Part shown: positions 299 to 61,960 of the stretch, in pieces
How positions within the stretch are numbered: position 1 is the stretch's first letter
How the letters are laid out: every line of letters begins with the position of its first letter
From: Rickettsiales bacterium (ex Bugula neritina AB1)
Lineage (GTDB): Bacteria; Pseudomonadota; Alphaproteobacteria; CAJXXZ01; UBA1459
Length of the DNA: 62,031 nucleotides
Assembly: GCA_001730065.1 (NCBI GenBank)
Contig: MDLE01000001.1
Coordinates: forward strand, 1-62,031
Direction: 5' to 3'
The notes under the pieces: model-generated
Database searches by the model: none
What the model was told of the DNA's origin: nothing
What the model saw: the letters and a program-made list of their open reading frames with translations, nothing else
Translations under genes and position numbers: made by a program

Positions 299-1147
299 TT
301 AAATACATCTTTTATAAATGATGTAAGCTTCTTTTAAAGCATCTTTAAGATTTTCTGTATATTTTGCAATTGTATTATTTTTTATAAATATATAATAAAT
401 TAAATATACTACGACAATACCTATAACAAAATAATTTATATTGATATTTATATTGATATTTTTTCGTTCTATTTTTAATCCTTTTAATCCAATTATATTA
501 TCTTTTATAAATGTATTAAATACATCTTTGATAAATGATGTAATTTTATCATTATTTAAGTTATTTAATTCTTTTTCTTTTAAGATTATTTCTCCATTTT
601 TATATTCTAAGTATTGATGCTTTATTTTGTCTATTACTCTTTCTAGTGTTAATAATCTACTAAAAGTATCTAATTCTTTAATTGTTTCTTCATAATCTAA
701 GAAACTTAAATTTAATGCATATAGTGCTTTCAGAGTAATATCTTGATATTCTTCTTTATTAAAATCTTTAATAAAATTTAAATATACTTCTAAGTTATTT
801 AAGAATTCTTGTAAGTTTAAGTTTTTTTTTCCTAATAATTCATTTATTTCTTTTGTTTGTTCTATTATCAATCCCATTACGTATTCTGGTAAAGAATAAC
901 CATAACCACTTAAAGATTCTATTTTAGAGATTAATTCTGCAACTTCTTTTATTTTTTCTTTATCTGCTGTTTTTATTTCTTCTTCTGAAAAATCTTCTTT
1001 TAAAGCATTTGTAAGATTTTCTTTATTTCTTTCAATTATATTATCTTTTTTATCTTTTTCTTCTTCTGTAAGTGGTTGTTTTATTTCATGATCCATACAA
1101 TCAACCGTAAAAAAAGTAATAATAAGTAAAAAATTTTTAATATTCAT
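299..1147 (-). CDS. Hypothetical protein with N-terminal signal peptide and C-terminal TM helix
   Basis: 282-aa ORF; MNIKNFLLIITFFTVDC leader; hydrophobic YFVIGIVVVYLIYYIFI; no recognisable family. Confidence 0.6.
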   Translation of the reverse strand: MNIKNFLLIITFFTVDCMDHEIKQPLTEEEKDKKDNIIERNKENLTNALKEDFSEEEIKTADKEKIKEVAELISKIESLSGYGYSLPEYVMGLIIEQTKEINELLGKKNLNLQEFLNNLEVYLNFIKDFNKEEYQDITLKALYALNLSFLDYEETIKELDTFSRLLTLERVIDKIKHQYLEYKNGEIILKEKELNNLNNDKITSFIKDVFNTFIKDNIIGLKGLKIERKNININININYFVIGIVVVYLIYYIFIKNNTIAKYTENLKDALKEAYIIYKRCI

Positions 1148-1174
1148 ATTATATAATAATACAACATATTATAT

Positions 1175-1210
1175 TATTATCATTTACTATACTATTATCA
1201 TTTACTATAC
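1175..1210. repeat. Intergenic tandem repeat, 2 x 18 bp (TATTATCATTTACTATAC)
   Basis: Exact direct duplication between divergent ORFs. Confidence 0.8.
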
Positions 1211-1261
1211 ATAAATATGAAATTAATAAAATTTTAATAAATGAATGATACATATTAAAAT

Positions 1262-2545
1262 ATGAAATATAATTTTTTTTTATTGTTATATATCAATATA
1301 ATATTTCAATTAAATAGTTTTAAAAACAATGAAAAATTTGTAGAGGTATGTGCCAAAATAAATTTAAAAGAACATTCATTTTATGATTTTAAACTTCCTT
1401 ATGAATTTTATATTTATGACAAAAAAATACCACAAAAAAAATTATATAATCTTACTAAGAATAAAGAGTTATTTCTACATTTAGTAATTATTATGCATCC
1501 TAAATTAAAACACACACAATATATTATAACTTTTTTGAAAGAAGTATTAGGTAATCGTATACCTATTAATCATTTATCAATAGAATTTTCTGAGGAAATG
1601 ACTAGTGATCGAGAACAATGGAAAAAAGTTACAAAAAGATTAAAAGATAACTTTAATAAATATAAAATATACTTTTTACAAGTATCTTATCCTTGGTTAG
1701 ACATAAAAAACAATAAAAGTAATATAAATTCTATGATAGAAGAAATGAAAAATAATATAAGATTAACATATAATCCAATAAATTATTTAGACGAAATTTC
1801 TTATCCTGTAAATGATCAAGAAAATAAAACTTCAGAGGATAACACTAATACGATAAAAAATAATACAATTAAAAATGAGGATGATAATGTTAGTACTAAT
1901 AGTAGTAATGAAATTAGTAACGAAACTATTCCATCTATAGAAAAATTAGATCATCCTAATGATGATTGTAAATCAATTAGTGATGTAACAGAAGAAAATA
2001 GAGAAGAAGAAAAATATTCACAAAAAAATAAAAATCCTTCACCAAAAAATGATTATAATGTAACAAATATATATATTTATCCTAAAAAAAAAAAGTTATA
2101 TGAAACTTTTCTTAATTTCTTAAGAGGATTTTTAGATACTCCAACACCAAATATTCAAATTCATAGTGAACATAAGTATATTAAAGAAAATACTATTGAA
2201 AATAAGAATAACGTAAATGTTTATTTTTTAGATAATATGGCAAAATATGCACAACCAGGAGATTTTTTCCACAATCGTAATAAAATTTTAGAGGAAATAG
2301 ATAAAGCTATAAAGAAAATAAATAAAAATCCAATACACATTACTATATATAATCCTCCTAATAATTCTTATCTAAATGGTATGAAAAATTTATTTAAAGA
2401 ATGTACTGAGTATGAATATACTTATGAAATTATAAAAAATAGACCTTATATGACTCCCTACTATACAACAAATTTGAATAATAATAAAGAAAATAATTCA
2501 CCATATAGGTGTTCTTATAATAAGAACTTAACATCCACCTATTGA
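1262..2545 (+). CDS. Hypothetical secreted protein with Asn/Glu-rich low-complexity middle
   Basis: 427-aa ORF; signal-like MKYNFFLLLYINIIFQLNS. Confidence 0.6.
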   Translation: MKYNFFLLLYINIIFQLNSFKNNEKFVEVCAKINLKEHSFYDFKLPYEFYIYDKKIPQKKLYNLTKNKELFLHLVIIMHPKLKHTQYIITFLKEVLGNRIPINHLSIEFSEEMTSDREQWKKVTKRLKDNFNKYKIYFLQVSYPWLDIKNNKSNINSMIEEMKNNIRLTYNPINYLDEISYPVNDQENKTSEDNTNTIKNNTIKNEDDNVSTNSSNEISNETIPSIEKLDHPNDDCKSISDVTEENREEEKYSQKNKNPSPKNDYNVTNIYIYPKKKKLYETFLNFLRGFLDTPTPNIQIHSEHKYIKENTIENKNNVNVYFLDNMAKYAQPGDFFHNRNKILEEIDKAIKKINKNPIHITIYNPPNNSYLNGMKNLFKECTEYEYTYEIIKNRPYMTPYYTTNLNNNKENNSPYRCSYNKNLTSTY

Positions 2546-7898: not shown

Positions 7899-8499
7899 AT
7901 ATCTTCCTTATTTTTGAAACAATTATAGATGTATTTTTCATATGTTGTTTTATACTAAAATAATACATTCCTTCATTTAACAAAAAAAAAACTATTAAAA
8001 TACTTCCACATATTTTTTTAAAACTCCAATAAGATTTATTATTTATAATACGAAAAGTTTCATAAGGTACTAAATTTATATCATATAAAATATTTTCTTT
8101 ATAAATTTCCATTAATTCTTTTTTGCGGGAAGTATGTAAACCTATTTCTATTCCAATAGTAGCAATTTCTATAAACATAACATTAAAAATATTATTATCA
8201 ATAATTTCATCTACATATTTTTGAAAAATAGTTTCTCCCATATTAGTACCAAATAAATAAAGCTCACCTGTATTATTTATCCATTCTTCAGGATTATTCA
8301 TATTTTGAATAAGAATTTCATCTCCCATAATAATAATAATTTGTATTATTTTTTTTGTATAATAACTATCGATATTTTTGTTCTTTTCCAGAAATTCTTC
8401 TTTAAAAGCCCACATATAATCGTAAACTTTTTCTTTTTGAAATGGTTTATGAGAAATATTTTTTATTTCATATAAAAATTTATGTAATTCCGTCAACAT
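7885..8499 (-). CDS. tssL: Type VI secretion TssL/DotU family protein
   Basis: GDEIL...W...ELYLFGTNMGETIFQ resembles the DotU signature (DE..L...W....L....F....GE.FF); single C-terminal TM; adjacent to the tssM-like gene. Confidence 0.65.
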   Translation of the reverse strand: MLTELHKFLYEIKNISHKPFQKEKVYDYMWAFKEEFLEKNKNIDSYYTKKIIQIIIIMGDEILIQNMNNPEEWINNTGELYLFGTNMGETIFQKYVDEIIDNNIFNVMFIEIATIGIEIGLHTSRKKELMEIYKENILYDINLVPYETFRIINNKSYWSFKKICGSILIVFFLLNEGMYYFSIKQHMKNTSIIVSKIRKIYGTL

Positions 8500-8544
8500 T
8501 TATAATATGATAAATTTTTTTTTTTTAAAAAATCGTTAATTTTT

Positions 8545-9036: not shown

Positions 9037-9999
9037 CTATACTATATTAAATAAGCATAGTATTTCAATTATGATTTCATTAATTAATGGAATACTTAGA
9101 ATAATCATTCCTATGATTGTTAATATATTTAAGATAATCAATAATACTCTTTTGTTTTTTTGGGACATTTTTCCAAAAGATAAAAATATATCAAAAACAC
9201 TGAACAACACCCAAAAACCATCTAGTGGTACAAAAGGTATAAGATTAAATAATCCTAAACTTAAAGATAGATTAATCAAAAATTTCAAAAGTAATAAAAA
9301 AATTGCTTTTTTATTAGATTGAGAATCAATAGATTTTGAAATAATTTTATTTATACTAATAAAAGATTTTACGTTATTAAAACTTCTTTTACTAATTAAA
9401 TTATAAATACCAACTATATTTTTTTTAAATAAATACCAACTATAAAATATATTGTTATTAAAACCACGAAGAAAATATCTTTCTTCTTTAAGTTTTTTAA
9501 AATTTTGTTCATTTACAAATCTATGTCCATCAAAAGTTACATCTTTGTCTTTATATTTATGAATAACAAATCCATCTTTTGTAAAATAATATATATTTTG
9601 TTCTGCTTTGTATTTATATACATCAATACCTACAAAATATGTTAAACCAATTATACCTACAAAAAAAAATAATATATTGAATAAAGGTCCTCCCATTGCA
9701 TATATAATTCTTTTTATAGGAGATGTTAATAACATTGCATCAATTTCAGAAATATTATTATGGTTATCACTAAAACTTACATAACCACCTAAAGGAATTA
9801 GATTAAGGGACCATACAGTTTTATGTTTATCTTCAGATTGGAAAATATTAGGGCCAAAACCTACTGCAAATTCTTTTACATCAACACCTACATATCTTGC
9901 AGTAATTAAATGTCCAAGTTCATGAATAAATGTTAAAAATAATACAATAGAAATAAAAAAAAACATGTGTAAAATATTCATATATTTGCATACTACCAT
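9037..9999 (-). CDS. rseP: Site-2 metalloprotease RseP (no evident PDZ domain; likely start at 9981)
   Basis: HELGH, FAVGFGP, IPLGGYV, GGPLFN, FNLIPFVPLDG. Confidence 0.9.
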   Translation of the reverse strand: MVVCKYMNILHMFFFISIVLFLTFIHELGHLITARYVGVDVKEFAVGFGPNIFQSEDKHKTVWSLNLIPLGGYVSFSDNHNNISEIDAMLLTSPIKRIIYAMGGPLFNILFFFVGIIGLTYFVGIDVYKYKAEQNIYYFTKDGFVIHKYKDKDVTFDGHRFVNEQNFKKLKEERYFLRGFNNNIFYSWYLFKKNIVGIYNLISKRSFNNVKSFISINKIISKSIDSQSNKKAIFLLLLKFLINLSLSLGLFNLIPFVPLDGFWVLFSVFDIFLSFGKMSQKNKRVLLIILNILTIIGMIILSIPLINEIIIEILCLFNIV

Positions 10000-10093
10000 A
10001 GATTTATAAATAAAATAAACGTATAATAAAATAAATTATTTTATAAAAATTTTTTGGATGTTTTTATAAAAATTTGTTATATAATTATTATAT

Positions 10094-11164
10094 ATGTCAA
10101 TGTCAAAAGATTATTATAGTGTTTTAGAAATAAATAAAAGTGCTAGTGATGAAGAAATACAAAAACAATATAGAAAACTAGTTTTTAAATATCACCCTGA
10201 TAAAAATCCTGGTAATAAAGAAGCGGAAGAAAAACTAAAAAAAATCAATGAAGCTTATGATGTATTATCTAACCCACAAAAACGTAAAAATTATGATACA
10301 ACTGGTAATCCAGAAGGTTCTCATGGATTTGGTGGTGATGGTGGTCATTATTACAGTAATATGGGTGGTTTTAATGTAGAAGATATTTTTGACATGTTTA
10401 CGGGTGGAGGAAAGAAAAACCATCAAGAAGTGAATCTTAATATTGAAAAACAATCTACTATTACCTTTAATGAATCTTATACGGGAAAAAATATTAATTT
10501 ATCTTTTGAAAAAAAATTAAAATGTGAAACCTGTAATGGTAGTGGTAGTAGATCAAATAGAAAAAGTAATTGTAGAATGTGTGCAGGTAGAGGTGTTGTA
10601 AATTCTTCTATTGGTGGTTTTTTTTCCGTAAATATTACCTGTAATAAATGTAATGGTGAAGGAAAAGAAAATATAGATCCCTGTAACAGTTGTAGAGGTA
10701 CAGGTGGTGTTTTAAAAAACGTCACTATTCAAGTAAAAATACCTGCAGGTATAGAAAATGGAAGTAAAATACGTGTAGTCGGTGAAGGACATGTGGGTGT
10801 TAATGGAGAACGTAATGGTGATTTATTTTTACATGTTTATGTTAAAAGTAGTGATAAATTTTATCGTGAAGGTCGTAATTTAATAATAAAATTACCAGTA
10901 GAACTAAGAAATATGTTATTAGGTGGTACTATTACAATTCCATTGCCAAATGGAGAAAATCATAATCTTACAATTAAAGAATGTCAAAATTTTAACAAAA
11001 ATATTATTGTAAAAAATCTTGGTTTTAAAGATATTAATAGATCTTTAACGGGAGATTTAATTATCATACCAGAAATTATAATACCTAAAAATTTAACGGA
11101 AAAACAAAAAGAAATTTTAAAACATTTTTTTGAAGAACAGGAAAAAAATAGTAGTTGGTGGTAA
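10094..11164 (+). CDS. dnaJ: Chaperone DnaJ
   Basis: J-domain with HPD, G/F region, four CxxCxGxG repeats. Confidence 0.97.
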   Translation: MSMSKDYYSVLEINKSASDEEIQKQYRKLVFKYHPDKNPGNKEAEEKLKKINEAYDVLSNPQKRKNYDTTGNPEGSHGFGGDGGHYYSNMGGFNVEDIFDMFTGGGKKNHQEVNLNIEKQSTITFNESYTGKNINLSFEKKLKCETCNGSGSRSNRKSNCRMCAGRGVVNSSIGGFFSVNITCNKCNGEGKENIDPCNSCRGTGGVLKNVTIQVKIPAGIENGSKIRVVGEGHVGVNGERNGDLFLHVYVKSSDKFYREGRNLIIKLPVELRNMLLGGTITIPLPNGENHNLTIKECQNFNKNIIVKNLGFKDINRSLTGDLIIIPEIIIPKNLTEKQKEILKHFFEEQEKNSSWW

Positions 11165-13093: not shown

Positions 13094-13720
13094 CTATAAT
13101 AGTCTATTAATTATACCGTCAATAAAACCTAATTCTATAGCTTCTGAGGGATTTAAAAACCAATCACGTTCATTTTTCAATGTATATTCTTCTAATGAAA
13201 TAGGTGTTGTTTTTTGTTTTTTTTTACGTACTAAAATAGTTTCATACATAATATTTGTTAATTGCTTTTTTAAGTAATTCATTTCTTCTGCTTGGATGGT
13301 AATGTCTGTTGTTTGTCCTTTAGCACCACCATGAGGTTGGTGGAGCATTATACGAGCATTAGGTAAACAATATACTTCTTTTCCTGCGGATAAAATCAAT
13401 GCACCAGCAGATGCAGCCATACCTACGCATATACATTTTGTAGGTGATTTAACATTTCTTATAGCATCAAAAATTGCAAGACCCGCATAAACATCTCCCC
13501 CATATGAGGTAATATATATATTTATTTCTGTCTTATTATCAATACTATCAAGATATAATAATTGTGCACTAATTTTTGCCGCTAAATTAATATCCACGTC
13601 ACCAAATATATACACAATACGTCCATTTGTTAATAGGTGTGAAAATATATCATGAGATACACGATATCCATCTGTGTTATCGGTTACAATAGGTACAACA
13701 TTTAAAACTTTTTTTTTCAT
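13094..13720 (-). CDS. clpP: ATP-dependent Clp protease proteolytic subunit
   Basis: DIFSHLL, YITSYGG, GMAASAG (Ser), MLHQP (His), ERDWFL (Asp). Confidence 0.95.
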   Translation of the reverse strand: MKKKVLNVVPIVTDNTDGYRVSHDIFSHLLTNGRIVYIFGDVDINLAAKISAQLLYLDSIDNKTEINIYITSYGGDVYAGLAIFDAIRNVKSPTKCICVGMAASAGALILSAGKEVYCLPNARIMLHQPHGGAKGQTTDITIQAEEMNYLKKQLTNIMYETILVRKKKQKTTPISLEEYTLKNERDWFLNPSEAIELGFIDGIINRLL

Positions 13721-13763
13721 TATCTATTATTATATAAAATAATTAATAAAAATTCTTTTAAAT

Positions 13764-13792: not shown

Positions 13793-13801
13793 TATAACAA
13801 A

Positions 13802-14164: not shown

Positions 14165-15841
<1,677 letters not shown>

Positions 15842-17999: not shown

Positions 18000-18000
18000 T

Positions 18001-48871: not shown

Positions 48872-48901
48872 ATAGTAAAAAAACTATGTTAAAATACCAT
48901 T

Positions 48902-49885
48902 ATGGGTAATTCAAATTCAATAATTAGTGGTATTCAACCTACAGGAGATCTACATATTGGTAATTATATAGGTATTTTTCATAATCTATACGAAATAATT
49001 AAAGATCCTTTATATAAAAAAAATGATATATTTATTTTTTTAGCGGATTTACATGCAATGACTATTCCTAATAAGAATTTAAAATCAAAGGGGATAGAAA
49101 TTATAAAATGGATTTTATCTACTAAAATAAATGGTAATCTTAAAATTTATTTTCAATCTGATATTACTAATATTACAAAAGGATATTGGTTTCTTTCCAC
49201 ATTTACACATATGGGGGAAATGAATAGAATGACACAGTTTAAAGAAAAAAGTGAATTAGGTAATAGTAATGTAGGGTTATATACTTATCCAATTCTTATG
49301 GCGGCGGATATTTTATATGTTAATGCTAGATTTTTAGGAGTTGGAGAAGATCAAAAACAACACTTAGAAATTACCCGTGATATTTCTATACGTATTAATA
49401 ATTATTTTTCAAGAAGTATTTTTACAATACCAGAGTTATTACCTCTACAGACTTTTCGTATTAAATCCTTAAATAATATAAATAAAAAAATGAGTAAATC
49501 AAATCCTGATGGTTGTTTATTTCTTAAAGATGATCCCAAAACAATTTATAATAAAATAAAAAAAGCTATAACTGATAAAGATACTTTTCCTACTAATTTA
49601 GAAGATTTAAAAAAACGTCCTGAAGCCTATAATTTAGGATTGATTTATAGTGTTATTGCTAATATAAGCTTACAAAATGTTATAAACAAATTTAGTGGTT
49701 ATAAATGGTCAGTGTTTAAAGAAGAACTATCAGGTGTAGTGATTCATACTCTAACAAATTTACAAAAAAATTATAAAGAAATTAGTGATGAATTTGTTTT
49801 ACAACGTACCCAGAAAGATATTCAATATATTAATTCTATTGTAGATGATAATATAAAAAAAACCTATAATTTAATGTTTCAATAA
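48902..49885 (+). CDS. trpS: Tryptophanyl-tRNA synthetase
   Basis: SGIQPTGDLHIGNY, YPILMAADIL, VGEDQKQHLE, KMSKS. Confidence 0.97.
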   Translation: MGNSNSIISGIQPTGDLHIGNYIGIFHNLYEIIKDPLYKKNDIFIFLADLHAMTIPNKNLKSKGIEIIKWILSTKINGNLKIYFQSDITNITKGYWFLSTFTHMGEMNRMTQFKEKSELGNSNVGLYTYPILMAADILYVNARFLGVGEDQKQHLEITRDISIRINNYFSRSIFTIPELLPLQTFRIKSLNNINKKMSKSNPDGCLFLKDDPKTIYNKIKKAITDKDTFPTNLEDLKKRPEAYNLGLIYSVIANISLQNVINKFSGYKWSVFKEELSGVVIHTLTNLQKNYKEISDEFVLQRTQKDIQYINSIVDDNIKKTYNLMFQ

Positions 49886-50165: not shown

Positions 50166-50296
50166 AAAATAGTATTTTTTCTAATAAGTAAATACTATAT
50201 GTTTTTAATTCTACTATATATATTTGTAAATTTCAATTTAAAAAATAAAATATTTTAATAATACATAAAATATATATTAATTGATATAATATACTC

Positions 50297-52231
50297 ATGT
50301 TATATTGGAATATATTACGAATAATTTTTATCACTATAATGATGTTATATATATCTATTACTTTATTTATATGTAAGAAAAATAAAATTTTAGAGTGGGT
50401 GTTTTTTCATATTTTTATTATCATTTCATTCATAATTATTATTCATATATCTCTTATACAAAAGATTAAAACTATTAAGAATTATATTCCACAATTTGCT
50501 TCTACTACTATTGTAAAGGATAGAAATAATATTATTATGGGAAAATTAGGACATGAATGGAGAGATTATGTAACAATAGAAAATATTCCTATAAAAATCA
50601 CAAAAACATTAATTGCTACAGAAGATACAAGTTTTTATAATAATATAGGTATTCATCCTCTAAGTATTATATATAGGATAATCAAATTTTTTCTTTATAA
50701 AGAAAAAACTATTCGTGGTACATCTACTATTACTCAACAAATGGTTAGAAATGTATTCTTATCCCATGAAAAATCTATTACAAGAAAAATTAAAGAAATA
50801 TATTTATCTTTTTATGTGACAAAATATTTTAAAAAATGGCAAATATTAGAAATATATTTTAATCATAGTGCTTTTGGTAAAAATGTATATGGTATAAAAA
50901 TGGCTGCTAAATACTATTTTGATAAAACTTTACAGGAACTTAATAATGAAGAAATTGCTTTTATTATAGGTGTAGTACAAGGTCCATCCTTTTATGATGG
51001 TAATCGAAAATCTGCTCTTGTACGTAAAAATTATGTACTTTTAAAAATGAAGGAATATCATATTATTAGCGATGAAGAGTATGAAATGTCTAAAAAAAAA
51101 ACTTTAAATTTTAAGAATTTTACAAAAATAACTTCTAGTGAATATATATTAGAAGAAGTAAAAGAAATACTATTATCTAATGACATGGATATTAATGATG
51201 GTATTATAGTAGAAACAACTATCAATGATAAATTACAAAAAATATCTAAAACTTCTTTAAATAACGTAATAAATGAATGGAAAAGACAAAATAATTCTTC
51301 CGTAAAAATTAATGGTGTTGTAATGATTATTGATCCTAAAACAGGAGAAATATTAACATCCGTAGGAGGGATAGGTTTTTCCACATCTTTTGTGGATGGT
51401 ACAAGACATATTTTACGTTCACCTGGTTCAATTATGAAAATTTTTTCAGTACTAACAGCATTAGAAAATGGTTATAATTTAGAAGATAATCTATATGGTA
51501 AAGGTGTTATATTTGATAATAAACAACAAAAAATTATTTATATAGATGATCAAGAATTATTAGAAGAATATGAAAATAATAGTAATTATAAAATTATTAA
51601 AAACTGCCCCAATAAATATTATGAACCTATTGTATTTCAAGATGTACTTTGTCAAGGATATAATACAAGTATTTTTTATCTTACATACATTTTATACGAA
51701 CAATTTTATGATAATCTTATAAAATTTCAAATTATTGAACCTTATCAGACCTGTTATTTATCAATGTGTTTAGGTAGTATTTTTATACCTATTCGTCATA
51801 TTGTAAAATGTTTTGCTCCTTTTGCAAATGGTGGTTATAAAATTCAAGATTTATTTTTAATAAAAAAAGTCCTAAAAAAAAATAAAGTAATTTATGAACA
51901 AACAGAAGATAAAAGAAAAGAAAAATTAATAGAAGAAGATATACTAAATAAAATATTATTTATGTTAAGACGTGTCATTGATATAGGAAGTGGAAGACGT
52001 TTAAAATCTTACAAATATATTATAGGAAAAACAGGTACAGGTCAAAATAATCGTGAAGGGTCTTTAATTTGTTGGAATCAGGATATGGATTATCTCATAT
52101 ATGTAAGTGTTTATAGGGAAGATTATGAAGAAATTCCAGGATTATTTGGGGCAACATTACCTTTATTTGTTACAAAAAAAATTTTAGAAAATATAGAAAA
52201 ATATAATTTTTTTTCAAAAAATAATAATTAG
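50297..52231 (+). CDS. Class A penicillin-binding protein (PBP1A-like transglycosylase/transpeptidase)
   Basis: TEDTSFY, GTSTITQQ, RKIKE; SIMK and KTGT motifs; SxN position reads GYN. Confidence 0.9.
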   Translation: MLYWNILRIIFITIMMLYISITLFICKKNKILEWVFFHIFIIISFIIIIHISLIQKIKTIKNYIPQFASTTIVKDRNNIIMGKLGHEWRDYVTIENIPIKITKTLIATEDTSFYNNIGIHPLSIIYRIIKFFLYKEKTIRGTSTITQQMVRNVFLSHEKSITRKIKEIYLSFYVTKYFKKWQILEIYFNHSAFGKNVYGIKMAAKYYFDKTLQELNNEEIAFIIGVVQGPSFYDGNRKSALVRKNYVLLKMKEYHIISDEEYEMSKKKTLNFKNFTKITSSEYILEEVKEILLSNDMDINDGIIVETTINDKLQKISKTSLNNVINEWKRQNNSSVKINGVVMIIDPKTGEILTSVGGIGFSTSFVDGTRHILRSPGSIMKIFSVLTALENGYNLEDNLYGKGVIFDNKQQKIIYIDDQELLEEYENNSNYKIIKNCPNKYYEPIVFQDVLCQGYNTSIFYLTYILYEQFYDNLIKFQIIEPYQTCYLSMCLGSIFIPIRHIVKCFAPFANGGYKIQDLFLIKKVLKKNKVIYEQTEDKRKEKLIEEDILNKILFMLRRVIDIGSGRRLKSYKYIIGKTGTGQNNREGSLICWNQDMDYLIYVSVYREDYEEIPGLFGATLPLFVTKKILENIEKYNFFSKNNN

Positions 52232-52652: not shown

Positions 52653-54815
52653 TTATTTTTGTATTTTTGTATTTTTATTAAATAAATTTACATATTTCTT
52701 GTTATTAAAAAACTCTGATAGATCTCCTTTGAAGGAAGACATTTTATCAAAACTTAATTTAGAAACGGATTTAATTGATTTACTAATAACTTGACGAATT
52801 CTTTCACGTGTTACTTCAAATCTTGCCCCCATATTACCAAGTGTATGGACGGTATTTTTATTATCTTTACCTTCTTCCATATTAATATCATAACTATCAA
52901 ATTTTTTAAAATTAAAACCATATCTTAAACGAATAATATATTCTTCTCTTGTAGGTAGACAAAATGTAAGTGTTTCCGTTAAATAAATAATTTCTTCCAA
53001 TGAGCGTAAATTTTCTTCAGGAGAATATTTTTTATTCATTTCTACAGAGTCCTGTAGTGTATGTTTTTCATCTTCATCACTTATAGATTTATCAAGACTA
53101 ATAACAGGTTTTGCAGCTTTTAAATTACGAGCTACTTTTTCCACAGAAACATTAAGTTTTTCAGAAATTTCTTCATAAGTAGGTTCACGACCAAGTTTTG
53201 TAGATAGTTCTCGGTATGTACGTAATAATTTATTTATTGTTTCCGTTACATGAACAGGTAAACGTAAAATACGAGACTGATCTGCTATAGCACGAGTAAT
53301 AGATTGACGTACCCACCAACTAGCATATGTGGAAAACTTATATCCTTTATGATAATCAAATTTATCAATAGCTTTAATAAGACCTGTATTACCTTCTTGA
53401 ATAAGGTCTAAAAAACTTAATCCTTTATTTGTATATCTTTTTGAATTAGAAATTACTAAACGTAAATTAGAATGCACCATATGACTTTTTGTAGTACTTG
53501 TTTTATTATATACATCATCTATTTCTTTATAATCAATAATAAATTTTTCATAATCAATAAATAAAGTTTCATATATATAATCTTTTATTTTTTTTATATC
53601 TTCTGAGATTTTATTACTTTTTTCTTGAGAAGCATTTTGTAAATCATTTTCTAATTTTGTAACAACTTTAATAGTTTTATTATAAAAAGACTGTATATTA
53701 TTATTAAAAAATGAATTCATTTTACTTTTTTGTATTCGTAAAAAAGTAATTTTATTTTTTACAATTTCTACTACACTATTAAAAGTGTTATTTTTTGTTT
53801 TTAAATTAATCATATTTGTTAAGTTTTCAATAATAGTATCTAAATTATCAAACACTTCTGGAAGTAAATTATATTCAACTTCATTTGTAATATTATCATC
53901 ATTTGTAAAACTTTTTTGTCTTTTATTAATATTAGCAATAAAAATATCAAGATCTATAAAATTTCTTAATAATAATTTCTTATTTATAAGTTGAAATTTC
54001 CATTCCGTTAATTTTTCCTTTAATAAAGGAAAAAACGTATTTACAATAATATGTAAAAAGTTCTTTTGACATTCTTCAATTGTTGTAAATATTTTTACTT
54101 CTTCTTTTTTTGTAAGTAATGGAAATTTATAAACTAATTGTAAATATATACGTGTTGTATCTTCAAAATTATGAGTAGTTTTTTTATTGTCATACTCTTC
54201 TTCTATATCATCATTACCATCATCATTTAAATCTTCATTATTACTACCATTATTTAATAAATCTTCATCTTTGTCTCCATAAATACTAATATTTAAAGTA
54301 TTTAAAGTATTAGTAATAATATCATATGCATTATCATATATTTCATTTTTATTATGTGTTAGTTCTAATAAGAAATCTTGAATATTTTTTTCATTAACAA
54401 GTTTACTTTGTAATGTATTATGTATAAATTCAATAATTTCTTCCTTATATTCTTTATAAAAATCTGTTTCTAAAAACTCTTCATTGATATTTTTAAAAAT
54501 ATTTTCCAAATCAATTCTATTATTTTTTTTTTTAGATGTTTTTATAGATTCATATAGTTGTTGTAATTTGTGTATAATATTTAAAATATTATTAAGATAA
54601 TTATCATAATTTTTTTTATTATTTATTTCTTTAAGATTATTTATAATATCTTTATGATTAATAAGTGTTTGTTTACTCATTTTTATAATTAAATTATCAA
54701 TAATTTGATGATTGTTATTATAAAATTTATCTTTTTTAAAAGGAAAATCATTTTCCATTTTAATATTTGTTAATAATTTATTTAGGGAAGATATAGATGC
54801 TTTTTTTATAGACAT
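52653..54815 (-). CDS. rpoD: Primary sigma factor RpoD (sigma70)
   Basis: [48 protein letters not shown]. Confidence 0.96.
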
Positions 54816-54899
54816 TAATATTAATAATACAATATATTTTTTTTAAAATAATATAATCTATTGTATTATGAAAAAAATTTTTTATAATTTTAATAGTCA

Positions 54900-55691: not shown

Positions 55692-56492
55692 ATGAACTTG
55701 GATAGTAAACATGATATATTAATTAATCTATTAAAAAAATTTGTTTATAAAAAACATAAAGATAATGATACATTAGAAATATTTTTTAAAAATACAAATA
55801 ATGAAGATGTGCGAATAATTATTAGTGAAGAATATGGTTTTAATAATTTGATTTTAAATAAAGAAGATTTTACAGTATCATTATTTGACAATAATAATCA
55901 AAAATTTTCTTTAACAATAGCTTTTAAAAAAATATCAATATTTTCCTTTAATGATGTTATTTTAATTAAAAATTTACAGATTAATTCCGCCTACAATAGT
56001 AGTTTAAATTTAGAAGAAATAATGCAAATAAAAATGTATGAACATTTAATTAATTTACAGAATAAAAATGAACATGTTTTTTTAAAAATTACTTTTGAAA
56101 TGGAAGAGATAATACAAAATTTGTCTAAAAATATAAAAAAATTATCGGTAATTATTATAGAAAAAAGTATAAAAAACCTAGATATCCAATTAGAGGGTGT
56201 TAGTTTATTTTTAGATAACACCAAAGAAAATATATTTATACCTTTTGAAAATATTTTAATTTTTCTTGATTTTCAAAATAAAGTAATATTTAATAAATTT
56301 ATTAAAATACCCATCAAAGATTTAGAATTATTTGAATCATTTTTTCAGACAACTATTAAGAATCATATTACTTATTTAAACTTTAAAGAAATAGCAGAAT
56401 TAAAATCTATATCCAATGAAAATAAAGAAAAACCAAAAATATATTATGTAGATTTTAAAAACTATTTAAAAGATAAAAATGAGGATATTTAA
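55692..56492 (+). CDS. Alphaproteobacterial-type SspB (ClpXP adaptor)-like protein with two tandem domains
   Basis: Two segments of pattern LxIxF...IIi....NL....fsv.l......l.IpF..I..F; C-terminal IYYVDFKN tail resembling the ClpX-binding motif. Confidence 0.5.
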   Translation: MNLDSKHDILINLLKKFVYKKHKDNDTLEIFFKNTNNEDVRIIISEEYGFNNLILNKEDFTVSLFDNNNQKFSLTIAFKKISIFSFNDVILIKNLQINSAYNSSLNLEEIMQIKMYEHLINLQNKNEHVFLKITFEMEEIIQNLSKNIKKLSVIIIEKSIKNLDIQLEGVSLFLDNTKENIFIPFENILIFLDFQNKVIFNKFIKIPIKDLELFESFFQTTIKNHITYLNFKEIAELKSISNENKEKPKIYYVDFKNYLKDKNEDI

Positions 56493-57154
56493 TGTTTTTT
56501 ATTAGAAATTGGCGAGAATATTTAAAAAATTTTTCTTATTCAAAAATTTTTCATAATGATAAAGAAATTTATTTTAATAATATATGTGATTCTATAAATA
56601 ATTTATCTTGTAGCTTAAAAACAAATGCAAATACAGTTATAGGACGAGGAAGTATAAATACTTCTTTATTATTTATAGGTGAAGCACCTGGGGAAGAAGA
56701 AGATAAATTAGGTGTTCCCTTTGTAGGAGCTAGTGGTGTCTTATTAAAAGAAATGATTAATAGTATAAATATAGATATTAATAAAGTATACATAACCAAC
56801 ATATGTTTTTGGCGTCCACCTTTGAATCGTCCTCCTACAGAAGAGGAAATTAATATTTGTTTACCAATGGTAAAGGAAATTATCAAACTAATAAATCCTA
56901 AACTTATTGTAACATTAGGATCAACGGCTACAAAAGTATTACATAACAAAATTACAAATATTAGTAAAGTACGTGGTATTTTTAGTAAAATATCCATAAA
57001 AGATAATATTTATGAATCAATTCCTACATTTCATCCCTCTTATATTTTAAGAATTCGTTCCCACAAATCTTTGTATATGAAAGATTTTTTAACAATACAA
57101 CAGTTTATAAAAGATAATAATTTATATGAAGAACTTATAATTTCTTCAAAATAA
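56492..57154 (+). CDS. udg: Uracil-DNA glycosylase, family 4
   Basis: FIGEAPGEEED..G.PFVGASG, ITNICFWRPPLNRPP, FHPSYILR. Confidence 0.93.
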   Translation: MFFIRNWREYLKNFSYSKIFHNDKEIYFNNICDSINNLSCSLKTNANTVIGRGSINTSLLFIGEAPGEEEDKLGVPFVGASGVLLKEMINSINIDINKVYITNICFWRPPLNRPPTEEEINICLPMVKEIIKLINPKLIVTLGSTATKVLHNKITNISKVRGIFSKISIKDNIYESIPTFHPSYILRIRSHKSLYMKDFLTIQQFIKDNNLYEELIISSK

Positions 57155-57198
57155 AATAATATGAACATGAAATAAAAATATGGTATCATATTTTAGTA

Positions 57199-58815
57199 AT
57201 GATTGAAAAAAAACAAGTGAATTATTTTGTTTTATTTATGATTATATTTAATAATAAACATACAAATTGTTTTAAAAAAAATTATTTTTTACCTTATATA
57301 TCAAAAAATAATTTGTTATTAAAAAATGATTTTTTTTATTTTTTTAAAAGAAGAAAATTAATTCATCAAAAAGCAAAATTTTTTGTACAAAGTTTAGTAG
57401 AAGATATTTTAAAGGATAATAAAAATTTTTACATACATGCAAATAATATAAAAAAAATAAAAAAAATTCGTTATAATATTTCTAATAATATCTCTTATAT
57501 ATATTTTTATTTAGATGAAAGTATGGATAATATAGTTATTTCTTATAATATATATGATATTCATTCCGCCTATAAAATTTATAATATTTTGCAATATTAT
57601 GATGTTCCTATGTATAATGTAGAAGAACAAATTAAATTTTTTCAAATAGGAATTATGTTCTTTACACTTTTAGTAACAATATATAGTGTATATAAAATGA
57701 AATTTGCTCAAAATCTTCATTTAAATAATTTTTCTAAAAAATTATTAGATGACAAAGAGTATGAAAATTTAAAATTAGATAATTTATTATCCTGTTATAT
57801 GCCTACTACAATGGAAAAAATAAATGATTTTGTAAATTTATGTATTTCTACAAATATGCAAAATAATAATAAATTTTTTTTTATAGAAATATTCAATAAA
57901 TTATTTAAAAAAAATACTATAAATAATATAAAACCTATTCATAAAAATATTATTTTATATGGAAATGCAGGTACTGGTAAAACAACTTTTGCCTCTTGTT
58001 TAAGAGATTATTTAGAAAATAATATGAAAAATTTTAAAAAAATATATTATATAGATATTTCCGCTACAGAGTGTTTAGGATCCGTATTTGTAAACTCAGG
58101 TATAGAGTACGTAAAAAATCTTTTTGAGGATATAAAGAAGCACTTAAAAAATTATAAAAATCATATGATAATTTTAAATATAAATGAAATAGAACAAATC
58201 TTTATAGAACATACGGTTTCAGGAGATTTTAACACTTACAAGGATGATGTACGTAATGAATTTAAATACCAACTAGATCTTTTAAGTAAAATAAAGGAAA
58301 AAAATTTTATTTTAGTGGCAACTTCTAATATAGAAATGAATAAAAAAAATACAAGTTTATTTTTAAATTCTGCATTGATGTCAAGATTCTTTATTGTAAA
58401 AGTTGAATTAGATCCTGAAAAAATTCAAAATATTATTAAAAATATTGTAGAACAGTATTTAAAATTTGATGATTATAATGAAGAAGAAAATTTCTTAAAA
58501 AAAAAATTAATTAATGATATTACAGAATTTTTAAAGGAAAAATGTTATATATATAATATTTCTAAATCAGAAAATACACTAAATTTTATAAAAAAATCTT
58601 TGTATATTATATTTGTAAAAATTAAACTTTATTTTTTAAAATTATTTTATTATGATATATATACTAAAAATATAGAAGAAGCAATTATGCCTAGAAAAAT
58701 AGAAGGAGCTTTTATTCATATAATTGCTAATCAAAATTCAAATTCTGTTATTAATAAAAATAATCTAGAAGAATTTATAATAAAATTTAAAAAATATTAT
58801 GATTTATGGTTTTAA
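57199..58815 (+). CDS. Membrane-anchored AAA+ ATPase (FtsH-like layout, no protease domain)
   Basis: TM near aa 147-165, GNAGTGKT, Walker B-like ILNINEIE, ATSN, LNSALMSRF. Confidence 0.75.
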   Translation: MIEKKQVNYFVLFMIIFNNKHTNCFKKNYFLPYISKNNLLLKNDFFYFFKRRKLIHQKAKFFVQSLVEDILKDNKNFYIHANNIKKIKKIRYNISNNISYIYFYLDESMDNIVISYNIYDIHSAYKIYNILQYYDVPMYNVEEQIKFFQIGIMFFTLLVTIYSVYKMKFAQNLHLNNFSKKLLDDKEYENLKLDNLLSCYMPTTMEKINDFVNLCISTNMQNNNKFFFIEIFNKLFKKNTINNIKPIHKNIILYGNAGTGKTTFASCLRDYLENNMKNFKKIYYIDISATECLGSVFVNSGIEYVKNLFEDIKKHLKNYKNHMIILNINEIEQIFIEHTVSGDFNTYKDDVRNEFKYQLDLLSKIKEKNFILVATSNIEMNKKNTSLFLNSALMSRFFIVKVELDPEKIQNIIKNIVEQYLKFDDYNEEENFLKKKLINDITEFLKEKCYIYNISKSENTLNFIKKSLYIIFVKIKLYFLKLFYYDIYTKNIEEAIMPRKIEGAFIHIIANQNSNSVINKNNLEEFIIKFKKYYDLWF

Positions 58816-60438: not shown

Positions 60439-60449
60439 AGGTAGTAATA

Positions 60450-60719
60450 TTGAAAAATTTTAGAAAAATATATTTACAAGAATTACTAGAAATTAATAAT
60501 CTTTTATCATTATACAATTATGAAGAACAGTTTGCTATTATGAAAATTACTACTATCAAAAATCATAAATATATTTATTTTTTAGTGAACATAGAGCATA
60601 TGGTATATTTTTACTCTTTAAAAAATAATATTATAAATATAATTAGTTTATATTATTGTAATAATTTTATTATCTATATATATGCGATGCAAAATAATAT
60701 ATGGGAAGAAATAAAATAA
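60450..60719 (+). CDS. Small protein, possibly DciA (DUF721)-like
   Basis: TTG start; YFYSLKNNIINIISLYY...IIYIYAMQ resembles the DUF721 C-terminal pattern; dnaB is in the window. Confidence 0.35.
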   Translation: MKNFRKIYLQELLEINNLLSLYNYEEQFAIMKITTIKNHKYIYFLVNIEHMVYFYSLKNNIINIISLYYCNNFIIYIYAMQNNIWEEIK

Positions 60720-60772
60720 ATTTTTTGTATAAATTAGTTGTATTATAAAAAAATTTGATAGAATAAAAATAT

Positions 60773-61960
60773 ATGAAATATACATTATATTATTTATTTT
60801 TATTAAATTATCTTACAGCAGATGTAAAAAAAACAAGTTATGTACCTAATAATAGTAATTCAATGTTTGATTTTTTACCATTGAATTTTAAAGGTGATAT
60901 GTCTTTTAAGAGCGAAAGAGTACCAGATAATAGAAGTTATATTGTACCTAGTGCAACAATAGAGTATATATATAATACCGCTAAGAATGACATAATTATC
61001 AAAATATTTCCTCCAGGTTTTTTTTATAGTGAAAATAATGCATCAGATTCTTATTTTTTAAAGAAAAAAAATGACTATACTTCTTCACCTTATATATCAA
61101 GTTTTACAGGAAGTTTATGGGATAAAATAAATTTTTCATGTTTATTAGAAAATTTAATAGGTTTAGACATGACAAGTTCTAGATCATTATTACCTAATTT
61201 AACTAATAAAGATATTAAATTTGAGGATCTATCTATTAAATTAAATCGTATGTTAAATAATAATAAACTAAACATTTATTTTTTACGTCATAATAAAAAA
61301 ATAACTTATATGGGAGGTATGGTTTTTTTTCCATTTTATTTTAATTTGATGCAAAAAAGCTTTATAAATGTTTTATCATTATGGCTTCATAATACTTGGA
61401 AATATAAAAATTTAAATATATCTTTAACAGGTCTTATGGATAATAAAGAAGAAAATAGTATGGAAATAATGATATTTTTGTCTATTAATATATTAGAAAG
61501 ATTGAAAATAACTTTTAAAAATAATTTAAATAAAAAAAATTTAGATATGGTATTTTTATTTATTATTTTTAAAAAATGGAAAAATATAGAAAATTTTAGT
61601 GTTATGTTAAATACTACTTCAAAAAATCCTCAGCAGGATTTTATAGATACTTTTTACAACTTATATACATTAATAAATAGATTTCATTTTGGTTTTAAAT
61701 TAGTTTATAACATAACAAATATATATAATTTAGAATTATTATTTATATTACCAAAAATTTTCACACAAAATACAGGAGTTTTAAAATATTATTCCTTTAA
61801 CCCTTTTGTCAATGATGTATTTTCACCAATCAATAATAATGTATTTTCACCATTAGAAAAAACAGTAAATGTTCTTAAATTTACTGTAAAGATTACTGGT
61901 GAATCCAAAAAAACAAAACCTGTTATTGCAAAAAATGAAACAAATTTATTATTATATTAA
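60773..61960 (+). CDS. Hypothetical secreted protein (possible outer-membrane beta-barrel)
   Basis: Signal peptide MKYTLYYLFLLNYLTA; aromatic-rich alternating segments. Confidence 0.55.
   Translation: MKYTLYYLFLLNYLTADVKKTSYVPNNSNSMFDFLPLNFKGDMSFKSERVPDNRSYIVPSATIEYIYNTAKNDIIIKIFPPGFFYSENNASDSYFLKKKNDYTSSPYISSFTGSLWDKINFSCLLENLIGLDMTSSRSLLPNLTNKDIKFEDLSIKLNRMLNNNKLNIYFLRHNKKITYMGGMVFFPFYFNLMQKSFINVLSLWLHNTWKYKNLNISLTGLMDNKEENSMEIMIFLSINILERLKITFKNNLNKKNLDMVFLFIIFKKWKNIENFSVMLNTTSKNPQQDFIDTFYNLYTLINRFHFGFKLVYNITNIYNLELLFILPKIFTQNTGVLKYYSFNPFVNDVFSPINNNVFSPLEKTVNVLKFTVKITGESKKTKPVIAKNETNLLLY

What the first reader, a model, noticed from the sequence alone, without database searches (positions are those of the whole stretch)
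1147..60775. Near-universal leaderless mRNA architecture, with SD sites mainly on internal operon genes
Seen: most first-in-unit genes have a -10 hexamer 6-9 nt before ATG and no SD. Examples: trpS TGtTAAAAT-6-ATG, PBP TGaTATAAT-6, FNR TGaTATAAT-6, tssG TATAAT-6, tatD TAAAAT-6, serS TATAAT-7, greA TATAAT-7, pheS TATAAT-7, GNAT TACAAT-7, tssL TATCAT-7, dnaJ/clpP/lysS TATAAT-8, secA/ftsH TATACT-8, rpoD TATTAT-8, yajC TTGACA-17-TAAAAT-9. Internal genes instead carry SD-like sites (atpA AAGGAG, atpD AAGGA, tssM AAGGA, 24323 AAGGA, udg GAGGA). hppA (GGAGGT) and the ACP-like gene are leadered exceptions. Established: +1 lies about 6-8 nt past the -10 box, so these transcripts would start on or next to the AUG, and RpoD keeps the PVHxxE extended -10 contacts. 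Inference: a reduced genome in which leaderless initiation is the default. The pattern also corrects the starts of secA, greA, rseP, GNAT and pheS.
Basis: partly seen in the sequence, partly recalled or inferred. Interest (0 to 1): 0.75.

Follow-up and report, generated by a model that had tools for sequence, protein, structure and literature searches.

The report
Promoters abutting start codons, leaderless genes
In this tiny, very AT-rich symbiont genome roughly a third to a half of the transcription units carry a promoter box 6-9 bases before the start codon, so their messages probably begin at the AUG; this is a known way of expressing genes, seen here in a bacterial group where I found no report of it.

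Summary
All named box-spacer-ATG examples are in the window. Among genes with 40 nt or more of upstream space, TAnnnT lies 6-9 nt before the first ATG in 22 of 30 in the window (9.3 expected from dinucleotide shuffles) and in 123 of 241 genome-wide (72 expected). TGnTAnnnT does so in 36 of 241 (2.5 expected). A motif model recovers TGnTATAAT, with a sharp onset at spacer 6. The boxes also carry a weak -35 TTG at 17 bp and are not enriched before tightly linked internal genes, which carry Shine-Dalgarno sites instead. My estimate is that 30-50% of first-in-unit genes are leaderless, not "near-universal"; the window is the richest contig. The anti-SD, S1 and IF3 are all retained. Six of seven sampled genomes of the same order of 0.5-0.8 Mb alphaproteobacterial genomes show the same pattern. 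Three same-class outgroups, one equally AT-rich, do not. This fits GeneMarkS-2 "group C" (PMC6028130), so it is a new member of a known kind. There is no transcript 5'-end evidence. This scan noted the same architecture before on other DNA (CPR bacteria and phages).

The parts
50282..50299 (+). PBP1a promoter-ATG unit: TGaTATAAT, spacer 6, ATG 50297
   Evidence: gene named by NCBIfam
27740..27757 (+). FNR/TrxB-like gene: TGaTATAAT, spacer 6, ATG 27755
48887..48904 (+). trpS: TGtTAAAAT, spacer 6, ATG 48902. Only 30 nt after the upstream gene, so an internal promoter.
41120..41134 (+). tatD: TAAAAT, spacer 6, ATG 41132
   Evidence: HMM N-terminus residue 2 = profile 1
38455..38469 (+). 237-aa gene without a family (reader: tssG): TATAAT, spacer 6, ATG 38467
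   Evidence: no family
19188..19203 (+). serS: TATAAT, spacer 7, ATG 19201
   Evidence: HMM N-terminus 1 = 1
19087..19102 (-). GNAT acetyltransferase: TACAAT, spacer 7, ATG 19089. Divergent from serS.
   Evidence: Pfam PF13302
23844..23859 (+). greA: TATAAT, spacer 7, ATG 23857. The longer TTG ORF from 23806 is rejected.
   Evidence: HMM alignment starts 3 residues into this start
8497..8512 (-). 204-aa gene without a family (reader: tssL): TATCAT, spacer 7, ATG 8499
10080..10096 (+). dnaJ: TATAAT, spacer 8, ATG 10094
13718..13734 (-). clpP: TATAAT, spacer 8, ATG 13720
13764..13804 (+). yajC: TTGACA, 17 nt, TAAAAT, spacer 9, ATG 13802. The only named unit with a full -35.
   Evidence: (sequence)
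31588..31604 (+). lysS: TATAAT, spacer 8, ATG 31602. Back to back with the 296-aa gene (TATAAT, spacer 5, ATG 31564) across a 37-nt gap.
39209..39225 (+). ftsH: TATACT, spacer 8, ATG 39223
54813..54829 (-). rpoD: TATTAT, spacer 8, ATG 54815
27633..27655 (-). secA: codon-8 ATG (27635) preceded by TATACT at spacer 8 and TGaTATTAT at spacer 11. The first ATG (27656) has TAGAAT at spacer 6.
   Evidence: the HMM alignment begins at residue 12 of the long form, which favours the codon-8 start
9979..9998 (-). rseP: codon-7 ATG (9981) preceded by TGgTAGTAT, spacer 8
   Evidence: HMM residue 8 = profile 2
45224..45239 (-). pheS N-terminal ORF: TATAAT, spacer 7, ATG 45226. The ORF is out of frame with the pheS body (44305-44967) at an A13 run.
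45891..45910 (+). recA: TGaTACTCT, spacer 8, ATG 45908
60756..60775 (+). 395-aa gene: TGaTAGAAT, spacer 8, ATG 60773
57181..57201 (+). AAA ATPase gene: TGgTATCAT, spacer 9, ATG 57199
36190..36223 (+). hppA, a leadered exception: TATAAT 17 nt before the ATG, with GGAGGT inside the short leader
   Evidence: sequence; NCBIfam
17999..18015 (-). atpA, an internal gene with SD AAGGAG 8 nt before the ATG and 1 nt after the upstream gene
15838..15852 (-). atpD, an internal gene with SD AAGGA
56478..56494 (+). udg, an internal gene with SD GAGGA that overlaps the upstream gene's end

Best explanation
The genome is a GeneMarkS-2 'group C'-type bacterial genome. About 30-50% of its transcription units are driven by sigma-70 promoters of the extended -10 type (TGnTATAAT, mostly without a -35). 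The hexamer ends 6-9 nt, with a tail to 12 nt, before the first ATG. RNA polymerase should therefore start on the A of the AUG or 1-3 nt (up to about 6) before it, giving leaderless or near-leaderless mRNAs. These would be decoded without Shine-Dalgarno pairing, by analogy with other bacteria through direct 70S binding to a 5'-terminal AUG. Genes inside operons, and a minority of first genes such as hppA, keep short leaders with SD sites that pair with an intact CCUCC anti-SD. The architecture is shared by most of the order of 0.5-0.8 Mb alphaproteobacterial genomes to which this one belongs. Shown here: the geometry, the statistics, the promoter-like features, the split between first and internal genes, and the distribution among relatives. 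Inferred: the transcription start sites and the mode of ribosome binding.
For: 1. Position. Dinucleotide shuffles: TAnnnT at 6-9 in 123 of 241 against 72.2 +/- 7.1; the one-mismatch box in 93 against 31.5; TGnTAnnnT in 36 against 2.5. Control windows 18-50 nt upstream in the same sequences (n=197): 49% against 26%, 37% against 11%, and 13.7% against 1.2%.
2. A ZOOPS-type EM seeded only with TAnnnT converges on TGnTATAAT. Expected sites are 0 at spacers 4-5 and 22, 14, 20 and 19 at spacers 6-9, which is 38% of 197 genes; spacers 6-12 hold 50%. In 15 mononucleotide shuffles no run recovers this motif, and the best 4-wide window holds 5-24% at arbitrary places.
3. Promoter features that were not used for selection (100 sites aligned on the hexamer): T at -3 in 73%, G at -2 in 39% (background 6%), and a TTG with G in 19% (background 6%) at the canonical 17-bp distance.
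4. It is not a ribosome-binding signal. Tightly linked internal genes (n=121) have TAnnnT at 6-9 in 29 against 23.5 expected (z 1.3).
5. It is complementary to SD. SD 4-mers occur in 2% of the 158 gapped genes with a box at 6-12, 30% of the 83 gapped genes without one, 36% of 121 internal genes, and 9% of 1555 control ATGs inside genes.
6. The starts are sound. In-frame ATGs 30 codons or fewer downstream are not enriched (6.5% of 108 against 5.9% of 1151 deep ATGs). HMM N-termini lie within a few residues of the chosen ATG for dnaJ, clpP, serS, tatD, trpS and FNR.
7. A check that does not depend on gene calls: ATGs opening ORFs of 80 codons or more at 6-10 nt after TGNTANNNT number 87, against 27 after the scrambled TGNATNNNT.
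8. Relatives. G001, G002, G003, G005, G008 and G012 of the same order show the peak (TAnnnT at 5-9: 38-62% against 21-28% in controls) and more SD on internal genes (17-45%) than on first genes (13-19%). Outgroups G020 (GC 30%), G026 and G025 show no peak and equal SD on first and internal genes.
9. RpoD retains LPVHVTE.
Against: - No transcript 5' end was seen, so the start sites are inferred from E. coli-type geometry.
- About half of the first-in-unit genes have no TAnnnT at 6-9 (118 of 241), and 72 of the 123 that do would be expected by chance. Individual calls are therefore unreliable, especially for non-extended boxes.
- The EM estimate is inflated by self-reinforcement; shuffles reach up to 24% in some window. 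The conservative excess estimate is about 30%.
- Spacers 9-12 would give 3-6 nt leaders rather than true leaderless ends.
- Orthologues do not share the state significantly. The relative's gene has a box in 15 of 36 pairs where the G000 gene has one, against 8 of 26 where it does not (Fisher p = 0.43).
- The translation machinery shows no loss that would suggest a commitment to leaderless initiation: the anti-SD is intact, a 513-aa S1 ORF is present and IF3 is present.
- My gene calls are crude: first ATG, 80 aa or more, no GTG or TTG starts, and tRNA genes not subtracted from gaps.
Confidence: 0.75

Rival explanations
1. The box is an A/U-rich, non-SD translation signal (S1 binding or an unstructured region) on leadered mRNAs that start further upstream. 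This is GeneMarkS-2 'group B', the class to which that paper assigns many Rickettsiales.
For: S1 is retained. In Table S4 of PMC6028130, Rickettsiales fall in group B (16 of 42) and group X (17 of 42) and are not listed under group C. AT-rich leaders can drive SD-independent initiation (established knowledge, recalled).
Against: The motif is not enriched before internal genes (29 against 23.5 expected), whereas a group B motif precedes first and internal genes alike (PMC6028130, passage). It carries a TG extension and a -35 TTG at 17 bp, which are promoter features. It has a hard lower limit of 6 nt.
Confidence: 0.1
2. The promoters are real, but the true start codons lie further downstream or transcription starts early. 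The mRNAs would then have short leaders of 5-20 nt translated by a non-SD route and would not be leaderless.
For: The spacer distribution has a tail to 12 nt. In relative G004 the same kind of motif sits 15-27 nt upstream with little SD, which shows that short SD-less leaders exist in the order. Two window genes (secA, rseP) did need a start correction.
Against: ATGs just downstream are not enriched for boxes. HMM N-termini match the chosen ATGs. The mode lies at spacers 6-9.
Confidence: 0.1
3. It is a chance product of 21% GC: TAnnnT is everywhere in such DNA, and the first-ATG rule creates in-frame TAA artefacts.
For: 26-31% of genes would have TAnnnT at 6-9 by chance. A 3-nt periodicity at spacers 0, 3, 6, 9 and 12 is visible.
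Against: z scores are 7 to 21 against dinucleotide shuffles, and the enrichment persists at the out-of-frame spacers 7 and 8. Control windows and ATGs inside genes show no enrichment. The GC-30% outgroup G020 shows no peak. Relatives with 28-35% GC show the same peak.
Confidence: 0.03

Closest known systems
GeneMarkS-2 'group C' bacterial genomes (Lomsadze et al. 2018, PMC6028130), such as Mycobacterium tuberculosis and Deinococcus; passages and Supplementary Table S4 read
   Same: A Pribnow box sits 6-8 nt from the start of first genes in operons, and internal genes carry SD sites. 25-50% of operons are leaderless; here the estimate is 30-50%.
   Different: Group C is mostly Actinobacteria (773 of 859) and Deinococcus-Thermus (37 of 38). 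Only 34 of 667 Alphaproteobacteria are group C, and Sphingomonadales is the only order listed. Here the genome has 21% GC and an assembly of 435,544 bp (about 0.6 Mb after correcting for 71% completeness), and the box is commonly of the TGn-extended type.
Caulobacter crescentus leaderless mRNAs (Schrader et al. 2014, PMC4117421; passages read) and Sinorhizobium meliloti (PMC3616915; passages read)
   Same: Both are Alphaproteobacteria in which leaderless mRNAs were mapped experimentally and are translated under normal growth. All S. meliloti leaderless starts are AUG.
   Different: The shares are lower: 375 leaderless mRNAs among 2201 transcripts (9.6% of CDSs) in Caulobacter, and 171 in S. 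meliloti. Both are large, GC-rich and free-living. Here the evidence is sequence only.
Mycoplasma group C genomes (26 of 70 Mycoplasma in Table S4 of PMC6028130)
   Same: Reduced, AT-rich, host-dependent bacteria with about a third of first genes predicted to be leaderless.
   Different: An unrelated phylum, and Gram-positive-type strong SD on the remaining genes (recalled).
'-10 region adjacent to ORF' genes of Deinococcus-Thermus (Zhong et al. 2025, PMC12340547; outline and abstract only)
   Same: A -10 element directly upstream of the ORF drives expression through leaderless mRNA.
   Different: A different phylum; that work has experimental support, and there is none here.
Archaeal operons (Sulfolobus, haloarchaea) and mammalian mitochondrial mRNAs (recalled, not from a call)
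   Same: First cistrons are leaderless and internal cistrons use SD (archaea). Mitochondria, which descend from alphaproteobacteria, have leaderless mRNAs.
   Different: Different promoters and ribosomes. Mitochondrial 5' ends arise by tRNA punctuation, not by promoters that abut the AUG.

Membership tests
GeneMarkS-2 group C (bacterial leaderless-transcription genomes) | Pribnow-like motif localised about 6-8 nt (about -10) from the starts of first genes in operons | tested here: met
   EM motif TGnTATAAT with spacers 6-9 holding 38% of 197 genes; shuffle z scores 7-21
GeneMarkS-2 group C (bacterial leaderless-transcription genomes) | Internal operon genes and the remaining first genes use an SD-type RBS | tested here: met
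   SD 4-mers in 36% of 121 internal genes and 30% of 83 box-less first genes, against 9% of control ATGs and 2% of 158 box-bearing genes; anti-SD CCUCC intact. The SD signal is weak in absolute terms.
GeneMarkS-2 group C (bacterial leaderless-transcription genomes) | A sizeable share (25-50%) of first genes in operons predicted to be leaderless | tested here: met
   30% by excess over controls; 38-50% by EM
GeneMarkS-2 group C (bacterial leaderless-transcription genomes) | Assignment by the GeneMarkS-2 program itself | not testable with these tools
   The program is not installed. I used my own first-ATG gene caller and EM.
Leaderless mRNA (5' end at the start codon) | Transcript 5' end mapped on the A of the AUG or within a few nt of it | not testable with these tools
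Leaderless mRNA (5' end at the start codon) | AUG as the start codon | tested here: inconclusive
   All starts are ATG by construction of my gene caller, so this is not an independent test
Sigma-70 extended -10 promoters | TGn immediately upstream of the -10 hexamer, with a weak or absent -35 | tested here: met
   G at -2 in 39% of 100 aligned sites against 6% background, T at -3 in 73%, and a -35 TTG in only about 19% at 17 bp
Sigma-70 extended -10 promoters | Sigma region 3.0 residues that contact the TG (His and Glu of PVHxxE; the E. coli assignment is recalled) | tested here: met
   RpoD reads [13 protein letters not shown]
GeneMarkS-2 group B (non-SD RBS genomes) | The same non-SD motif precedes both first and internal genes | tested here: not met
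   Internal genes have TAnnnT at 6-9 in 29 of 121 against 23.5 expected (z 1.3)

The most novel reading that the evidence does not exclude
A whole order of highly reduced (0.5-0.8 Mb) alphaproteobacterial symbionts has moved to promoter-abutted, leaderless initiation for the heads of a third to a half of its transcription units. SD would remain only for coupling inside operons. The shift does not follow from AT-richness alone, because an equally AT-rich outgroup lacks it and one family of the order places its promoters 15-27 nt upstream instead. That would make the order a living bacterial parallel to the SD-less, leaderless translation of mitochondria, and a natural series for studying how SD dependence is lost during organelle-like reduction.
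Probability: 0.45. Interest if true: 0.55.

Novelty: new member of a known kind. Interest (0 to 1): 0.4.

Why it matters
- Annotation. SD-trained gene callers will misplace starts in these genomes. The box-to-ATG geometry gives usable corrections, as for secA, rseP, greA and pheS here.
- Biology. The result adds an order of reduced alphaproteobacterial symbionts to the lineages in which leaderless initiation is a major mode. The share is two to three times that measured in Caulobacter.
- Evolution. There is an internal contrast (family f4) and an AT-matched outgroup. The link between genome reduction, intergenic shrinkage and loss of SD dependence can therefore be tested comparatively.
- Limits. 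The mechanism itself is not new, and it rests on sequence alone.

Tried and rejected
- RNA evidence. The look-up of sequencing runs listed no RNA holder. The one run guessed to be RNA (X6) laid a single 34-letter piece from a 500-letter contig on the 2-kb stretch I tried. Nothing can be said about expression or 5' ends.
- Naming the order. The first related-loci scan with RecA found nothing. The second, with an alignment, returned 80 loci that were all about 50% identical and came from many phyla, so it was uninformative. I can only say Alphaproteobacteria: alpha-type tmRNA above its cut-off in this genome, and only in Caulobacter among the 14 controls.
- recA upstream regions across the order. 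My ORF picker chose wrong ORFs in several loci. Among the usable ones the state varies: box at 6-7 in G002 and G008, SD in G009 and G010.
- Orthologue concordance of the box state. 62 pairs, odds ratio 1.6, p = 0.43; no conclusion.
- Y(-1)R(+1) context. T at -1 is no more frequent in box-bearing genes (48%) than in others (46-60%), so it adds no support.
- A per-position logo anchored on the ATG shows almost nothing, because the spacer varies; this is not evidence against the finding.
- Literature. 'leaderless' + 'Holosporales' gave 1 paper, whose single use of the word I did not read. 'leaderless' + 'Rickettsiales' gave 10 papers; I saw titles and abstract openings only, and none of these describes leaderless transcription in that order. 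A further search for 'leaderless mRNA' with Rickettsiales or Holosporales names listed 15 papers, none of which holds 'leaderless mRNA'. These searches cover open-access texts only, and I do not know the order's name.

Full report
WHAT THE WINDOW IS

The window is contig C1 of an 8-contig, 435,544-bp assembly. It is 71% complete with 0.4% contamination and has 21-24% GC.
- Table 11 is adequate: reading TGA or TAG through adds little ORF length.
- The genome carries an alpha-type two-piece tmRNA above the Rfam cut-off. Among the 14 control genomes this family is found only in Caulobacter. It is therefore an alphaproteobacterium, in agreement with earlier notes of this scan.
- Its GTDB order holds 13 species genomes, all 0.5-0.8 Mb. 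I could not name the order.
Pfam confirms the GNAT.
- The names tssG, tssL, tssM and 'ACP-like' found no family.

THE OBSERVATION

All quoted box-spacer-ATG strings exist as described, and so do the quoted SD-like sites. The question is whether they exceed chance in DNA where TAnnnT is very common.

I called genes crudely: first ATG of each stop-to-stop ORF, 80 aa or more, greedy removal of overlaps. This gave 377-380 genes covering 87% of the genome. I then split them by upstream context.
- Motif profile by spacer. TGnTAnnnT lies at spacers 6-10 in 20 of 130 divergently flanked genes and 25 of 112 same-strand genes with gaps of 40 nt or more. The background is about 0.3 per spacer position.
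- Control windows 18-50 nt upstream in the same 197 sequences (gap 60 nt or more). TAnnnT at 6-9: 49% against 26%. TAtaaT with at most one mismatch: 37% against 11%. TGnTAnnnT: 13.7% against 1.2%. Exact TATAAT: 12.7% against 2.6%.
- 200 dinucleotide-preserving shuffles, genome. TAnnnT 123 of 241 against 72.2 +/- 7.1. One-mismatch box 93 against 31.5 +/- 5.2. Extended box 36 against 2.5 +/- 1.6.
- The same shuffles, window. 22 of 30 against 9.3; 19 against 4.0; 6 against 0.4.
- Stop-codon artefact. A 3-nt periodicity from the in-frame stop that bounds each ORF is visible. However, the out-of-frame spacers 7 and 8 alone give z scores of 4.5, 7.7 and 13.4.
- A count that needs no gene calls agrees. 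ATGs that open ORFs of 80 codons or more at 6-10 nt after TGNTANNNT number 87, against 27 after the scrambled TGNATNNNT.

HOW MUCH OF THE GENOME

A ZOOPS-type EM seeded only with TAnnnT converges on T-G-n-T-A-T-A-A-T.
- Its spacer distribution is empty at 4-5. It rises abruptly to 22, 14, 20 and 19 expected sites at 6-9, then tails off (9, 7, 7 at 10-12).
- That puts 38% of 197 genes at 6-9 and 50% at 6-12.
- On 15 shuffled sets the EM never finds this motif, but it still concentrates 5-24% of genes in some 4-wide window. The EM figure is therefore optimistic.
- The excess-over-control estimate is about 30%.

I therefore put the share at 30-50% of first-in-unit genes, roughly 20-30% of all genes.

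The window is the richest of the 8 contigs: 73% with TAnnnT at 6-9 against 51% genome-wide.

The window's exceptions among its 30 gapped genes are the genes at 1262, 23552, 28785 (rnhA, which starts 14 nt after a tRNA), 35865 (SD GAGGAAAG), 36221 (hppA) and 18375 (box at spacer 10-12), plus rseP and pheS, whose first ATG as I called it lacks a box.

WHY THE BOXES ARE PROMOTERS AND THE STARTS ARE RIGHT

I aligned 100 good sites on the hexamer.
- They show T at -3 (73%) and G at -2 (39% against 6% background), which is the extended -10.
- They show a weak TTG whose G (19% against 6%) lies exactly 17 bp upstream, which is the -35.
- Neither feature was used to select the sites.

Other evidence:
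- RpoD retains the region-3.0 motif LPVHVTE. The assignment of His and Glu to TG contact is recalled from E. coli work.
- Tightly linked internal genes (same strand, gap under 40 nt, n=121) are not enriched for TAnnnT at 6-9 (29 against 23.5 expected). They do hold a few extended boxes (8 against 0.9), which I read as internal promoters such as those before trpS and dnaB. This speaks against a ribosome-binding role.
- In-frame ATGs up to 30 codons downstream of the first ATG are not enriched (6.5% of 108 against 5.9% of 1151 deep ATGs), so wholesale start miscalling is unlikely.
- Profile-HMM N-termini lie within a few residues of the chosen ATG for dnaJ, clpP, serS, tatD, trpS and the FNR-like gene.
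The secA codon-8 ATG (TATACT-8) and the rseP codon-7 ATG (TGgTAGTAT-8) match where the HMM alignments begin. greA starts at ATG 23857, not at the upstream TTG.
- pheS has an N-terminal ORF from ATG 45226 (TATAAT-7). It is one base out of frame with the body of the gene across an A13 run. One public contig spans 44953-45681 with one gap (728 letters on 729 positions). The position of the gap is not shown, so the frameshift may be an assembly error.

SD USAGE

The 16S 3' end reads ...GGAATACCTCCTTTCT, so the anti-SD core is intact. Frequencies of the SD 4-mers GGAG, GAGG, AGGA or AAGG at -20 to -5:

| Gene class | n | With an SD 4-mer |
|---|---|---|
| Gapped genes with TAnnnT at 6-12 | 158 | 2% |
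| Gapped genes without such a box | 83 | 30% |
| Tightly linked internal genes | 121 | 36% |
| Control ATGs inside genes | 1555 | 9% |

Duplex energies give the same ranking. The two signals are therefore complementary. SD is mostly, though not only, an internal-gene feature, and it is weak in absolute terms. S1 is present as a divergent 513-aa ORF (85 bits), and IF3 is present. Nothing suggests that the machinery has lost SD-dependent initiation.

RELATIVES

I ran the same pipeline on 160-235 kb samples of other genomes (results). Columns 4 and 5 give the observed share of first-in-unit genes with the motif at spacers 5-9, followed by the share in control windows.

| Genome | Kinship | GC | TAnnnT at 5-9 | One-mismatch box |
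|---|---|---|---|---|
| G001 | same family | 24% | 54% / 28% | 42% / 12% |
| G002 | same order | 28% | 51% / 21% | 30% / 7% |
| G003 | same order | 30% | 46% / 22% | 17% / 6% |
| G008 | same order | 35% | 42% / 25% | 25% / 6% |
| G012 | same order | 30% | 38% / 22% | 23% / 5% |
| G005 | same order | 31% | 62% / 24% | 46% / 9% |
| G004 | same order, family f4 | 32% | 21% / 26% | 7% / 10% |
| G020 | outgroup, same class | 30% | 31% / 24% | 11% / 8% |
| G026 | outgroup, same class | 40% | 12% / 25% | 1% / 9% |
| G025 | outgroup, same class | 58% | 4% / 5% | 0% / 1% |

- In the six positive genomes, SD 4-mers are more frequent on internal genes (17-45%) than on first genes (13-19%).
- In G002 and G003 the EM peak is even sharper than here (spacers 6-7).
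- G004 is the exception within the order. Its promoter-like motif sits 15-27 nt upstream.
- In the outgroups, SD is equally frequent on first and internal genes (18% and 22%, 31% and 31%, 25% and 27%).
- The trait therefore belongs to most of the order and does not follow from base composition. Kin are not independent, so I draw no statistics across genomes.
- Whether the same genes are leaderless across genomes could not be shown (62 orthologue pairs, p = 0.43).

COMPARISON WITH WHAT IS KNOWN

This is the pattern that GeneMarkS-2 calls group C: a Pribnow box 6-8 nt from the start of first genes in operons, and SD on the others (PMC6028130; passages read, Table S4).
- Group C holds 1028 of 4769 bacteria, with 25-50% of operons predicted to be leaderless.
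- It is dominated by Actinobacteria and Deinococcus-Thermus.
- It includes 26 of 70 Mycoplasma but only 34 of 667 Alphaproteobacteria. Sphingomonadales is the only alphaproteobacterial order listed under it.
- Rickettsiales appear under groups B and X.
- Experimentally, Caulobacter has 375 leaderless mRNAs among 2201 transcripts (PMC4117421) and S. meliloti has 171 (PMC3616915).
- My searches found no description of widespread leaderless transcription in Holosporales or Rickettsiales. They cover open-access full texts only, and I do not know this order's name.
- This scan has reported the same architecture before in CPR bacteria and in phages, not in this order.

VERDICT

The feature is real and statistically robust, and its mechanism is already known. 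The main caveat is that there is no 5'-end evidence of any kind.

Noticed in passing
window 44305-45232 (- strand): pheS is in two frames. A 58-codon N-terminal ORF (ATG 45226) ends just after an A13 run, and the 220-aa body (ATG 44967) is one base out of frame with it. A public contig spans the interval with one gap whose position is not shown. This is either an assembly error in a homopolymer at about 6x depth or a real frameshift that could be read through by slippage.
   Followed up: partly
19 of the 23 window proteins I sent to Pfam have no family at all.
   Followed up: partly
G004 (family f4, same order), sample C1:1-200000 (L015-L024): This relative lacks the box at 5-9 nt. Its promoter-like motif (TggTAtAaT) sits 15-27 nt before first ATGs, and only 7% of its first genes have an SD 4-mer. 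That suggests short SD-less leaders within the same order.
   Followed up: partly
window 28684-28787: rnhA starts 14 nt after the 3' end of tRNA-Ser(CGA) and has no box at 6-9 nt. It may be co-transcribed with the tRNA and released by tRNA processing, which would give a very short leader by another route.
   Followed up: no
window 31562-31604 and 13718-13804: Divergent gene pairs share very short control regions with back-to-back -10 boxes. The 296-aa gene and lysS are separated by 37 nt, and clpP and yajC by 81 nt.
   Followed up: no
window 57199-60438: Two adjacent genes of 538 and 530 aa each hold one AAA ATPase domain (Pfam PF00004) and nothing else recognisable. Each has its own extended -10 box.
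   Followed up: no
G000:C2:25414-26956 (L001): The 16S 3' end reads GGAATACCTCCTTTCT. As far as I recall the usual form is GGATCACCTCCTTTCT, so the CCUCC core is kept but the bases 5' of it differ.
   Followed up: no
G000:C4:5085-6464: Ribosomal protein S1 is a single 513-aa open frame that scores only 85 bits against TIGR00717 (cut-off 577). Profile positions 124-225 are unmatched, so it is very divergent or lacks one S1 domain.
   Followed up: no
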